A DNA stretch of 64,000 nt from Schizochytrium sp. TIO01 (taxonomy: Eukaryota; Protista; Bigyra: Labyrinthulomycetes), in contig SMSO01000009.1 of the NCBI GenBank assembly GCA_004764695.1, positions 1 to 64,000 of the forward strand, written 5' to 3'. Below the pieces are notes generated by a model that saw only the letters and a program-made list of their open reading frames with translations, had not been told where the DNA came from and did no database searches. Made by a program: the position numbers and the translations under genes. Positions within the stretch are counted from its first letter, which is position 1; every line of letters begins with the position of its first letter. Below, one piece after another: positions 29,403-30,836 of the stretch.

Positions 29403-29474
29403 TACAACTAACGTGGATCGAACACGTGACATTCCGCGTGTGAGGCGGACGCTCTACCACTGAGCTATAGCTGC
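29403..29474 (-). tRNA. tRNA-Val(CAC), array copy 1
   Basis: GCAGCTA...TCCGC-CTCACAC-GCGGA...ACGTG-TTCGATC-CACGT-TAGTTGT-A; complete cloverleaf. Confidence 0.88.
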
Positions 29475-29572
29475 TATTAAATGCTGTTGAACGAGCCGCG
29501 GCTGCTGACCTACAAGACCAAACACAAAGGACCTACTGGGTCAAAAACTTATCAAAAATCAAAAATGTAATT

Positions 29573-29644
29573 TACAGCTAACGAGGATCGAACTCGTGAC
29601 CTTCCGCGTGTCAGGCGGACGCTCTACCACTGAGCTATAGCTGC
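29573..29644 (-). tRNA. tRNA-Val(GAC), array copy 2
   Basis: GCAGCTATAGCTCAGTGGTAGAGCGTCCGCCTGACACGCGGAAGGTCACGAGTTCGATCCTCGTTAGCTGTA; downstream T-run. Confidence 0.92.
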
Positions 29645-30101
29645 TAGTTCACTGAGTGACTCATGTCACATGTCCCTTGGTCGGTCTACGCGCAATATAT
29701 ACGTATAATCTTTAAAATACTATCATTAATGATACCACACAACAATCGTTTGTTGCGAGAATTGCAATGCCCAACATTTGGCATGATATGATTCGACTTG
29801 AGAAAGCTTGAATTATCACCGGTAGGTACCCAGGTAGGCTCTTCCAGGGAAATTCACAAATATTTCAAACTAGAGCACGCTCGATTCAAGTTGTACGGCA
29901 CGCCACCGTTCATTCACTGCCTTGAAAGTTAACTTTAATTTTCAATTTTTAATTAGATTATAAAAATAATTGAGAGCTCCAGGCGTACATCGCAAAAGTT
30001 TACAAGTTAGTTTTCATGATAAAACCAAAAATCAGAAATACATAATTTACAGCTTTTCAAGTTAGTTTCATGATTAAACCAAAAATCAAAAATATATAAT
30101 T

Positions 30102-30173
30102 TACAGCTAACGAGGATCGAACTCGTGACCTTCCGCGTGTCAGGCGGACGCTCTGCCACTGAGCTATAGCTGC
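30102..30173 (-). tRNA. tRNA-Val(GAC), array copy 3
   Basis: Same as copy 2 except D-loop TGGCA. Confidence 0.92.
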
Positions 30174-30265
30174 CATTCATTTTTGTTGACAGTGAGTGAG
30201 CTGCTGTCCTACAATACGAAAACAAACGACATAGATTTGGTCAAAATCAAATCAAAAAAGTAATT

Positions 30266-30337
30266 TACAGCTAACGAGGATCGAACTCGTGACCTTCCGC
30301 GTGTCAGGCGGACGCTCTGCCACTGAGCTATAGCTGC
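30266..30337 (-). tRNA. tRNA-Val(GAC), array copy 4
   Basis: Identical to copy 3. Confidence 0.92.
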
Positions 30338-30431
30338 TATTAGAGTTGTTGAGAAAGTTGGGGCTGCTGTTGTTTATAATGATATGCTCAGCTCAGATTA
30401 TTGACCAAAAACAGAGGCCAAAAAACAATGA

Positions 30432-30503
30432 TACAGCTAACGAGGATCGAACTCGTGACCTTCCGCGTGTCAGGCGGACGCTCTGCCACTGAGCTATAGC
30501 TGC
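30432..30503 (-). tRNA. tRNA-Val(GAC), array copy 5
   Basis: Identical to copy 3. Confidence 0.92.
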
Positions 30504-30597
30504 TATTAAATTTTGTTGAAAGAGCTGAGGCCACTGCCCTACAACAGTAAAAACAAACGAACTAACGTTGGTCAAAATTAAAACCAAAAAAGTAATT

Positions 30598-30669
30598 TAC
30601 AGCTAACGAGGATCGAACTCGTGACCTTCCGCGTGTCAGGCGGACGCTCTACCACTGAGCTATAGCTGC
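30598..30669 (-). tRNA. tRNA-Val(GAC), array copy 6
   Basis: Identical to copy 2 (TGGTA D-loop). Confidence 0.92.
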
Positions 30670-30764
30670 TGGCACATTTTGTTGAACGAATCACGGCTGC
30701 CGTTCTACATAACCACATGTCTACCATAGATTATTGATCAAAAATAGAGGCAAAAATACAATTA

Positions 30765-30836
30765 TACAGCTAACGAGGATCGAACTCGTGACCTTCCGCG
30801 TGTCAGGCGGACGCTCTGCCACTGAGCTATAGCTGC
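30765..30836 (-). tRNA. tRNA-Val(GAC), array copy 7
   Basis: Identical to copy 3. Confidence 0.92.

What the first reader, a model, noticed from the sequence alone, without database searches (positions are those of the whole stretch)
29403..30836. Tandem array of atypical, bacterial-looking tRNA-Val(GAC) genes in a eukaryotic nucleus
Seen: six tRNA-Val genes with anticodon GAC, a GCTC/GAGC D-stem, a G1-U72 pair, Pol III A/B boxes, oligo-T terminators and no encoded CCA. Established: eukaryotes normally read GUU/GUC with A34 (inosine) tRNA-Val(AAC); G34 in this codon box is the bacterial/archaeal/plastid solution. This same window contains A34 tRNAs for Ser(AGA), Leu(AAG) and Arg(ACG), so the lineage uses A34 elsewhere and Val is the exception. 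Inference: a horizontally acquired or re-evolved tRNA-Val was amplified and may replace Val(IAC). The adjacent actin gene is rich in GTC codons, which GAC reads by Watson-Crick pairing.
Basis: partly seen in the sequence, partly recalled or inferred. Interest (0 to 1): 0.8.

Follow-up and report, generated by a model that had tools for sequence, protein, structure and literature searches.

The report
Valine tRNAs that skip inosine
A marine protist carries a tandem array of six intact valine tRNA genes with a GAC anticodon, which likely replace the inosine-bearing valine tRNA that most eukaryotes use; the same exception is already tabulated for Entamoeba, and the genes likely arose from the protist's own tRNA and not from bacteria.

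Summary
The array is real. Six intact tRNA-Val(GAC) genes (99% alike, flanks 55-63% alike) sit beside a seventh, unreported Val(CAC) gene with the same body (67/72). The host is a thraustochytrid, probably Aurantiochytrium.

In contigs of four related isolates, every piece covering the wobble base was G34, C34 or one unidentified family. Depth ratios suggest roughly 15-33 GAC and 6-8 CAC genes, so GAC is probably the main valine tRNA. Absence of Val(AAC) is not proven: the unidentified family (17-26x) is unread, the needed Val(UAC) was not seen either, and no genome was held.

A bacterial origin is not supported:
- Prokaryotes sharing the D and anticodon arms were all CAC/TAC (0 of 119 GAC).
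- The window's Lys tRNA matches bacteria equally well.
- G1-U72 and the GCTC/GAGC D-stem also occur in A34 valine tRNAs.

Actin's GTC bias equals that of its other boxes (p=1.0). Entamoeba has the same Val(GAC) exception in print. I found no report for thraustochytrids, and the scan had not noted it on other DNA. This is probably an independent second case: modest but real interest.

The parts
29403..29474 (-). tRNA-Val(CAC) gene, same body as the GAC genes (67/72). It shares its wobble, variable-loop and T-stem letters with a larger CAC family elsewhere in related genomes.
   Evidence: family relationship deduced from difference counts
29573..29644 (-). tRNA-Val(GAC) copy 1 (T at gene position 19); T5 terminator at +8
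30102..30173 (-). tRNA-Val(GAC) copy 2; T5 at +10; CAACA at -15
30266..30337 (-). tRNA-Val(GAC) copy 3; T6 at +7; CAACA at -14
30432..30503 (-). tRNA-Val(GAC) copy 4; T6 at +7; CAACA at -15
30598..30669 (-). tRNA-Val(GAC) copy 5 (identical to copy 1); T6 at +7; CAACA at -15
30765..30836 (-). tRNA-Val(GAC) copy 6; T5 at +9
29645..30101 (.). Long spacer (457 nt; start-to-start 529 against 164-170 elsewhere), holding a local duplication of about 50 nt of the downstream terminator region (29999-30047 / 30054-30108); possibly the site of lost units
   Evidence: lost-unit reading is inference
31570..32700 (-). Actin gene (context only; no specific link to the array shown)

Best explanation
The locus is a tandem array of six intact nuclear tRNA-Val(GAC) genes plus one Val(CAC) gene of the same body, and the GAC genes likely arose by an anticodon change within the protist's own valine tRNA family and likely serve as its main GUU/GUC reader in place of Val(IAC). 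Shown: cloverleaf, A/B boxes, terminators, Val identity bases (A35, C36, C38, A73), near-identical genes in diverged flanks, a sibling CAC gene, and only G34 or C34 among laid contigs of this body. Inferred: (1) each unit is a separate Pol III transcription unit; (2) ValRS charges it; (3) G34 reads GUC by Watson-Crick pairing and GUU by G-U wobble with no need for ADAT2/3, while CAC and an unseen UAC gene read GUG/GUA; (4) roughly 15-33 copies per genome make it the major isoacceptor; (5) Val(AAC) was lost or converted, as in Entamoeba, and independently of it.
For: Gene identity is 0.993 against 0.547 upstream and 0.631 downstream, which fits selection or concerted evolution on the tRNA alone. 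Laid on the CAC copy, the only other letter listed at the wobble base is G34: depth 3703 of 4812 in X1 and 5974.7 of 8726.6 in X2; the remainder sums exactly to contigs deduced to be C34. In one search the depth at the wobble base is fully accounted for in 4 of 4 runs by GAC-type, CAC-type and one 49-nt family; G34 is read directly only in X1 and X2 and is deduced from difference counts in X3 and X9. Ratios to the single-copy contig are GAC 30.9/15.1/19.4/33.1 and CAC 7.5/6.2/7.1/7.1. That gives about 21-40 genes of the 434-552 tRNAs reported for such genomes, i.e. about 4-8%, near the 5.8% Val codon share in six window ORFs (227 of 3911, summed by hand). The majority GAC type elsewhere differs by 2 letters at each end of the gene, so at least two isodecoders exist. 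For a native origin: a eukaryote-type contig carries Val(TAC) with the same anticodon arm and variable loop, and G1-U72 in all three of its Val genes (L148); a 288-kb virus record carries Val(AAC) with the GCTC/GAGC D-stem and G1-U72 (L169); the window's Leu(AAG) also has G1-U72. Precedent: Entamoeba Table 1.
Against: An unread family (6 differences over gene positions 8-47, unaligned acceptor strand, 17-26x) could be Val(AAC); my simulation could not exclude it, since the outcome depended on the aligner's unknown seed length. Val(UAC), which GTA codons require (e.g. 15 in one ORF), was not identified among the laid contigs, so the method can miss a Val gene. The tool warns that contig depth is no copy number and that contigs show presence, not absence. 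All five eukaryote-type contigs in my loci have U11:A24-type Val D-stems (L133, L148, L157, L161, L165), so C11:G24 is unusual. The closest single sequence I hold is a bacterial-type Val(CAC) (62 identical columns, L137). Expression and charging are untested. No other labyrinthulomycete genome could be read.
Confidence: 0.62

Rival explanations
1. Val(GAC) is functional and native but coexists with a multi-copy Val(AAC) family, which would break the A34/G34 exclusion rule.
For: The unidentified 49-nt family is present in 4 of 4 runs at 17-26x and matches 34 of 40 positions in the D and anticodon arms. With a 14-letter seed, 66-78% of Val(AAC)-like patterns would behave as it did. Val(UAC) went unseen, so detection is incomplete.
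Against: Its acceptor strand does not align, unlike the Val types seen here. With a 15-letter seed only 4-36% of Val(AAC)-like patterns would vanish as it did. Counting it as Val would make Val about 9-13% of tRNA genes against a 5.8% codon share. Genomes generally keep A34 or G34, not both (PMC5372738 passages).
Confidence: 0.22
2. A bacterial tRNA-Val gene entered the nucleus, acquired Pol III flanks, was amplified, and supplied the body of both the GAC and CAC genes.
For: C11:G24 D-stem where the eukaryote-type Val genes I hold have U11:A24. A 33-nt D-plus-anticodon-arm pattern matches an estimated 220 prokaryotic stretches exactly. The best gapped match is a bacterial-type Val(CAC), 62 columns.
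Against: Of 120 prokaryotic loci, 119 were read: 110 CAC, 9 TAC, 0 GAC, at most 53/72 ungapped identity, with different acceptor and T stems. Bacterial Val(GAC) genes in my loci share only 52 columns. Paired control: the Val gene's best-scoring plasmid-collection match is 85.0% (65 bits), the window's Lys(CTT) 86.9% (72 bits). The same D-stem occurs in a Val(AAC) gene (L169). The searched collections are mostly prokaryotic, which biases best hits towards bacteria.
Confidence: 0.1
3. The array is a set of non-functional or SINE-like tRNA copies amplified locally.
For: Tandem amplification with a period of about 166 nt. One damaged copy with a broken 3' end is seen in run X1. No expression data.
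Against: No lesion in 6 of 6 copies; flanks have diverged while genes have not; scores of 70.8-73.3 bits are the highest of the window's tRNAs; a second intact isodecoder occurs at higher depth; nothing follows the gene but a short spacer and terminator.
Confidence: 0.05

Closest known systems
Entamoeba tRNA-Val(GAC) (arrays [VF], [FVV5], [FVDTX]; Tawari et al., PMC2652664 Table 1; bioRxiv 10.64898/2026.07.06.736064)
   Same: A nuclear eukaryotic genome using GAC, CAC and TAC for Val while Ala, Arg, Ile, Leu, Pro, Ser and Thr use A34; Val(AAC) is not listed for any of the four tabulated species.
   Different: Unrelated supergroup (Amoebozoa vs Stramenopiles; recalled). Entamoeba arrays are huge, with short tandem repeats between genes; here there is a 7-unit array with diverged spacers. 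Absence of AAC is tabulated there and only inferred here. I did not compare the tRNA bodies.
Saccharomyces / Candida glabrata tRNA-Leu(GAG) replacing Leu(AAG) (PMC8007984 passage)
   Same: One four-codon box uses G34 while the others keep I34.
   Different: A different box. That gene is a minor species (single-copy status recalled); here the G34 gene appears to be the high-copy major reader.
Standard eukaryotic tRNA-Val(AAC/IAC), an ADAT2/3 substrate
   Same: Anticodon loop C32-U33-N34-A35-C36-A37-C38, similar anticodon stem and variable loop (L148, L165), Pol III gene anatomy, no CCA.
   Different: G34 instead of A34, and C11:G24 instead of the U11:A24 D-stem pair that human DNMT2 needs (PMC8682788 passages).
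Bacterial tRNA-Val(CAC/TAC) and Val(GAC) of Actinomycetota and gut bacteria
   Same: GCTC/GAGC D-stem; identical D-plus-anticodon arm in CAC/TAC genes. Actinobacterial Val(GAC) also has C32 and C38.
   Different: G1-C72 and different acceptor stems; CCA often encoded; no hit with this arm carried GAC (0 of 119).

Membership tests
Functional nuclear (Pol III) tRNA-Val gene, RF00005 | Cloverleaf above the Rfam gathering score | tested here: met
   70.8-73.3 bits vs 29; structure
Functional nuclear (Pol III) tRNA-Val gene, RF00005 | A box, B box, oligo-T terminator, no encoded CCA | tested here: met
   6 of 6 GAC copies
Functional nuclear (Pol III) tRNA-Val gene, RF00005 | Val identity elements A35, C36, C38, A73 | tested here: met
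   elements from PMC9976931 passages
Functional nuclear (Pol III) tRNA-Val gene, RF00005 | Expressed, matured and valylated | not testable with these tools
   The RNA runs offered were oligo-dT or metatranscriptome contigs; none was laid
Entamoeba-type G34-for-I34 replacement in the Val box | Multi-copy Val(GAC) as the purine-34 isoacceptor | tested here: met
   6 copies in the window; G34 is the majority letter at the wobble base in X1 and X2
Entamoeba-type G34-for-I34 replacement in the Val box | Other boxes keep A34 | tested here: inconclusive
   Intact Ser(AGA) and Leu(AAG) plus a damaged Arg(ACG) in the window; Ala, Ile, Pro and Thr not seen. A tRNA adenosine deaminase GO term is listed for S. 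limacinum SR21 (supplement row)
Entamoeba-type G34-for-I34 replacement in the Val box | No Val(AAC) gene in the genome | tested here: inconclusive
   None among contigs laid on the CAC copy; one family unread; no genome held
Horizontally acquired bacterial tRNA | Closer to bacterial genes than a native tRNA is | tested here: not met
   85.0% vs 86.9% for the Lys control in one collection
Horizontally acquired bacterial tRNA | A bacterial donor with the same body and anticodon | tested here: not met
   0 GAC among 119 read of 120 loci, from 36 of 64 parts of GTDB; 0 GAC among 33 metagenome loci
Horizontally acquired bacterial tRNA | Patchy distribution and phylogenetic nesting within bacteria | not testable with these tools
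   No stramenopile genomes could be searched
tRNA-derived SINE or pseudogene array | Decay of the tRNA part, or a shared non-tRNA tail | tested here: not met
   Genes 99.3% alike and intact; flanks 55-63% alike

The most novel reading that the evidence does not exclude
A bacterial-type tRNA-Val body (C11:G24) displaced the whole native nuclear valine tRNA set of thraustochytrids and was then retuned to GAC and CAC. Valine decoding would thereby have left both the inosine (ADAT2/3) and the m5C38 (DNMT2) circuits: a wholesale replacement of a core eukaryotic tRNA family by a transferred gene.
Probability: 0.1. Interest if true: 0.8.

Novelty: new member of a known kind. Interest (0 to 1): 0.42.

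Why it matters
G34 tRNAs in four-codon boxes have been called 'impossible' in eukaryotes and were toxic in human cells for Ala, Pro, Thr and Leu when bases 32 and 38 cannot pair; the passages I read do not name Val among those tested (PMC7293025). A second, unrelated lineage using high-copy Val(GAC) with an unpaired C32/C38 loop would suggest that the Val box is especially free to leave inosine. It would offer a culturable, non-pathogenic organism in which to test why eukaryotes keep I34. It also matters in practice for codon optimisation and tRNA-adaptation indices in DHA-producing thraustochytrids.

Tried and rejected
Whole-genome census: no genome is held.

Reading the unidentified family: one search listed no letters. 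A simulation of 6-mismatch patterns under guessed aligner settings was inconclusive, with 4-78% of Val(AAC)-like patterns fitting depending on the settings; it is not used as support.

C32/C38 as a eukaryote marker: rejected, because actinobacterial Val(GAC) has it too.

Actin codon link: rejected.

Viral source: a T-arm pattern found 0 matches; an anticodon-arm pattern found 12, all CAC/TAC; an acceptor/D pattern found 2 unrelated tRNAs.

Metagenome scan: 33 loci (29 CAC, 3 TAC, 1 AAC), none a close relative.

Published anticodon tables for thraustochytrids: none found; three genome-paper supplements held no anticodon table. The supplement of PMC8266599 was cut at about 4 million characters and held none of the six stramenopile names I searched, so its A34 table may bear on novelty unseen. 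Rafels-Ybern et al. 2018 and 2019 are not held; I recall the 2019 abstract reporting large variation of I34 use in protists, and it may already count this case.

A taxon id in a protein header resolved to a fungus, which does not fit the other evidence. It differs by a digit swap from the id of A. limacinum, so it is only a hint.

No tree was built: 72-nt sequences without stramenopile sampling would not settle the origin.

Full report
OBSERVATION. ARAGORN lists 12 tRNA genes in the window, seven of them in 29403-30836 on the minus strand: six Val(GAC) and one Val(CAC). Rfam scores the GAC genes at 70.8-73.3 bits, the highest of the window's tRNAs, and the CAC gene at 66.6. The six GAC genes differ only by T/C at gene position 19; the CAC gene differs at positions 33 (wobble), 44, 51, 61 and 68. 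All seven have A and B boxes, G1-U72, discriminator A, the loop C32-U33-N34-A35-C36-A37-C38 and no encoded CCA. Each GAC copy has a T5-T6 run 7-10 nt downstream; five of the seven genes have CAACA 14-15 nt upstream. Start-to-start spacing is 164-170 nt, except one gap of 529. Mean identity among the six GAC copies is 0.993 for the gene, 0.547 for 40 nt upstream and 0.631 for 40 nt downstream. Of the three A34 genes it cites, Ser(AGA) and Leu(AAG) are intact. Arg(ACG) has a disrupted anticodon stem: the 7 nt after the loop are the reverse complement of a stretch that begins with the expected pairing strand.

ORGANISM. The window holds eukaryotic 18S, 5.8S, 28S and two 5S genes. The closest named relatives of its ABC transporter are from Hondaea fermentalgiana (76%) and Mucochytrium quahogii (55%). 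Runs holding the locus have 57-68 million letters of contigs, like published Aurantiochytrium genomes of 60-64 Mb (PMC11636214 passages; PMC7179369 abstract start). I infer a thraustochytrid, probably Aurantiochytrium. No whole genome was held.

IS IT THE MAIN VALINE tRNA? I laid contigs of four of the 24 listed runs on one GAC copy and two of them on the CAC copy. On the CAC copy the only other letter listed at the wobble base is G34: depth 3703 of 4812.1 in X1 and 5974.7 of 8726.6 in X2. The remainder equals the summed depth of contigs whose difference counts against the two references show C34 (1109.0 and 2751.9). The tool lists a letter only when a contig shows it away from its ends, so the arithmetic, and not the missing rows, carries this point. 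On the GAC copy the depth at the wobble base is reproduced by the listed pieces in 4 of 4 runs; for X1 this uses two pieces listed only. The pieces fall into a GAC type, a CAC type and one 49-nt family with 6 differences over gene positions 8-47 and an unaligned acceptor strand. In X3 and X9 the GAC assignment is deduced from difference counts and was not read. Ratios to the single-copy contig are GAC 30.9, 15.1, 19.4, 33.1; CAC 7.5, 6.2, 7.1, 7.1; unknown family 26.3, 22.1, 17.8, 17.0. The tool warns that depth is no copy number, so these are rough. Taken at face value, GAC plus CAC give 21-40 genes, about 4-8% of the 434-552 tRNAs reported for such genomes. Val makes up 227 of 3911 codons (5.8%) in six window ORFs (summed by hand). 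GAC thus has the copy number expected of the major isoacceptor (inference). Against certainty: the unknown family could be Val(AAC), and a simulation under guessed aligner settings was inconclusive. Val(UAC), which GTA codons need, was not identified, so the method can miss Val genes.

ORIGIN. A 33-nt D-plus-anticodon-arm pattern with a free wobble base returned 120 prokaryotic loci from 36 of 64 parts of GTDB. Of these, 119 were read (one was dropped at a contig edge): 110 CAC, 9 TAC, no GAC, at most 53/72 ungapped identity. A metagenome scan gave 33 loci (29 CAC, 3 TAC, 1 AAC). The best gapped match in all my loci is a bacterial-type Val(CAC) with 62 identical columns (L137); a eukaryote-type Val(TAC) has 58. 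These sets were selected by patterns taken from the query, in mostly prokaryotic collections. As a control, the Val gene's best-scoring match in the plasmid collection is 85.0% (65 bits) and the window's Lys(CTT) gene's is 86.9% (72 bits), so this level of likeness is ordinary for a tRNA. The 'bacterial' marks are not diagnostic. G1-U72 occurs in all three Val genes of a eukaryote-type contig (L148) and in the window's Leu(AAG), while the bacterial hits have G1-C72. A Val(AAC) in a 288-kb virus record has both the GCTC/GAGC D-stem and G1-U72 (L169; its size matches a chlorovirus, recalled). C32/C38 does not separate the domains, since actinobacterial Val(GAC) has it. The simplest reading is a one-base anticodon change in a lineage-specific Val body shared with Val(CAC). 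Old transfer of the whole body is not excluded, because no stramenopile genomes could be searched.

MECHANISM. Shown: gene anatomy, and the identity bases that PMC9976931 (passages) names for valylation (A35, C36, C38, A73). Inferred: Pol III transcription of each unit, CCA addition, charging by ValRS, and decoding of GUC by G-C and of GUU by G-U wobble without ADAT2/3. The deaminase seems to persist in this group (a GO row in the SR21 supplement) and would serve the other boxes. The loop fits the human DNMT2 motif, but C11:G24 blocked that enzyme in a tRNA-Gly test (PMC8682788 passages), so m5C38 may be absent; this is speculative for a protist. Actin shows no special tuning: Val C:T is 20:5 against 128:30 in the seven other boxes (p=1.0).

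KNOWN CASES. [quoted passage not shown] Reviews list Leu(GAG) of Saccharomyces as an exception (PMC8007984 passages), describe A34/G34 exclusion (PMC5372738 passages) and find GNN isoacceptors rare in 459 fungi (PMC8826637 passages). The direct precedent is Entamoeba: Table 1 of PMC2652664 (read whole) lists Val GAC, CAC and TAC with A34 for Ala, Arg, Ile, Leu, Pro, Ser and Thr and no Val(AAC); a 2026 preprint repeats Val(GAC) (passage). PMC8072771 and PMC8266599 (passages) gave background only. Ten full-text searches showed no report of Val(GAC) in thraustochytrids. However, the two surveys most likely to hold one (Rafels-Ybern 2018, 2019) were not available, and a relevant supplement was truncated. 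Five look-ups in the scan's earlier notes gave nothing relevant.

VERDICT. A real and probably major G34 valine tRNA family in a thraustochytrid nucleus, best read as a native and independent repeat of the Entamoeba exception. My rough odds: functional genes 0.9; major isoacceptor 0.8; Val(AAC) absent 0.7; native origin 0.85-0.9. New member of a known kind; interest 0.42.

Noticed in passing
window 58915-58987 (-), segment 58942-58948: tRNA-Arg(ACG) with a disrupted anticodon stem: the 7 nt after the loop are the reverse complement of a stretch that begins with the expected pairing strand. This looks like a micro-inversion (pseudogene or assembly artefact).
   Followed up: partly
window 50830-56359 (+), 43999-44117 (-), 63529-63647 (-): A single 18S-5.8S-28S unit flanked by two identical 5S genes on the opposite strand. 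This resembles the subtelomeric rDNA described for Aurantiochytrium (recalled, not checked).
   Followed up: no
window 48185-49285 (+): Cluster of four tRNA genes just upstream of the rDNA: Ser(TGA) with a 39-nt intron, Lys(CTT), Leu(AAG), Gln(CTG).
   Followed up: no
window 29403-29474 (-): The array's Val(CAC) gene has the acceptor stem of the GAC copies but the wobble, variable-loop and T-stem letters of the larger CAC family elsewhere, suggesting gene conversion between isoacceptors. Its terminator is 38 nt away.
   Followed up: partly
run X1, record of 218 nt: A G34 copy at about 2x single-copy depth whose 3' end departs after the T-loop: a damaged member of the family in that isolate.
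   Followed up: no
L133 1-2555 and L148 1-2505: Dense eukaryote-type tRNA clusters (12 and 9 genes in 2.5 kb) of an unidentified organism, with Val TAC, CAC and AAC together.
   Followed up: partly
L169 2537-3669: tRNA cluster in a 288-kb virus record, including Val(AAC) with a C11:G24 D-stem and a Ser(ACT) call.
   Followed up: partly
window 41211-43475 (+): 754-aa ORF of low GC3 (0.39) with a kinase-like C-terminal motif by eye, next to the 5S gene; not annotated further.
   Followed up: no
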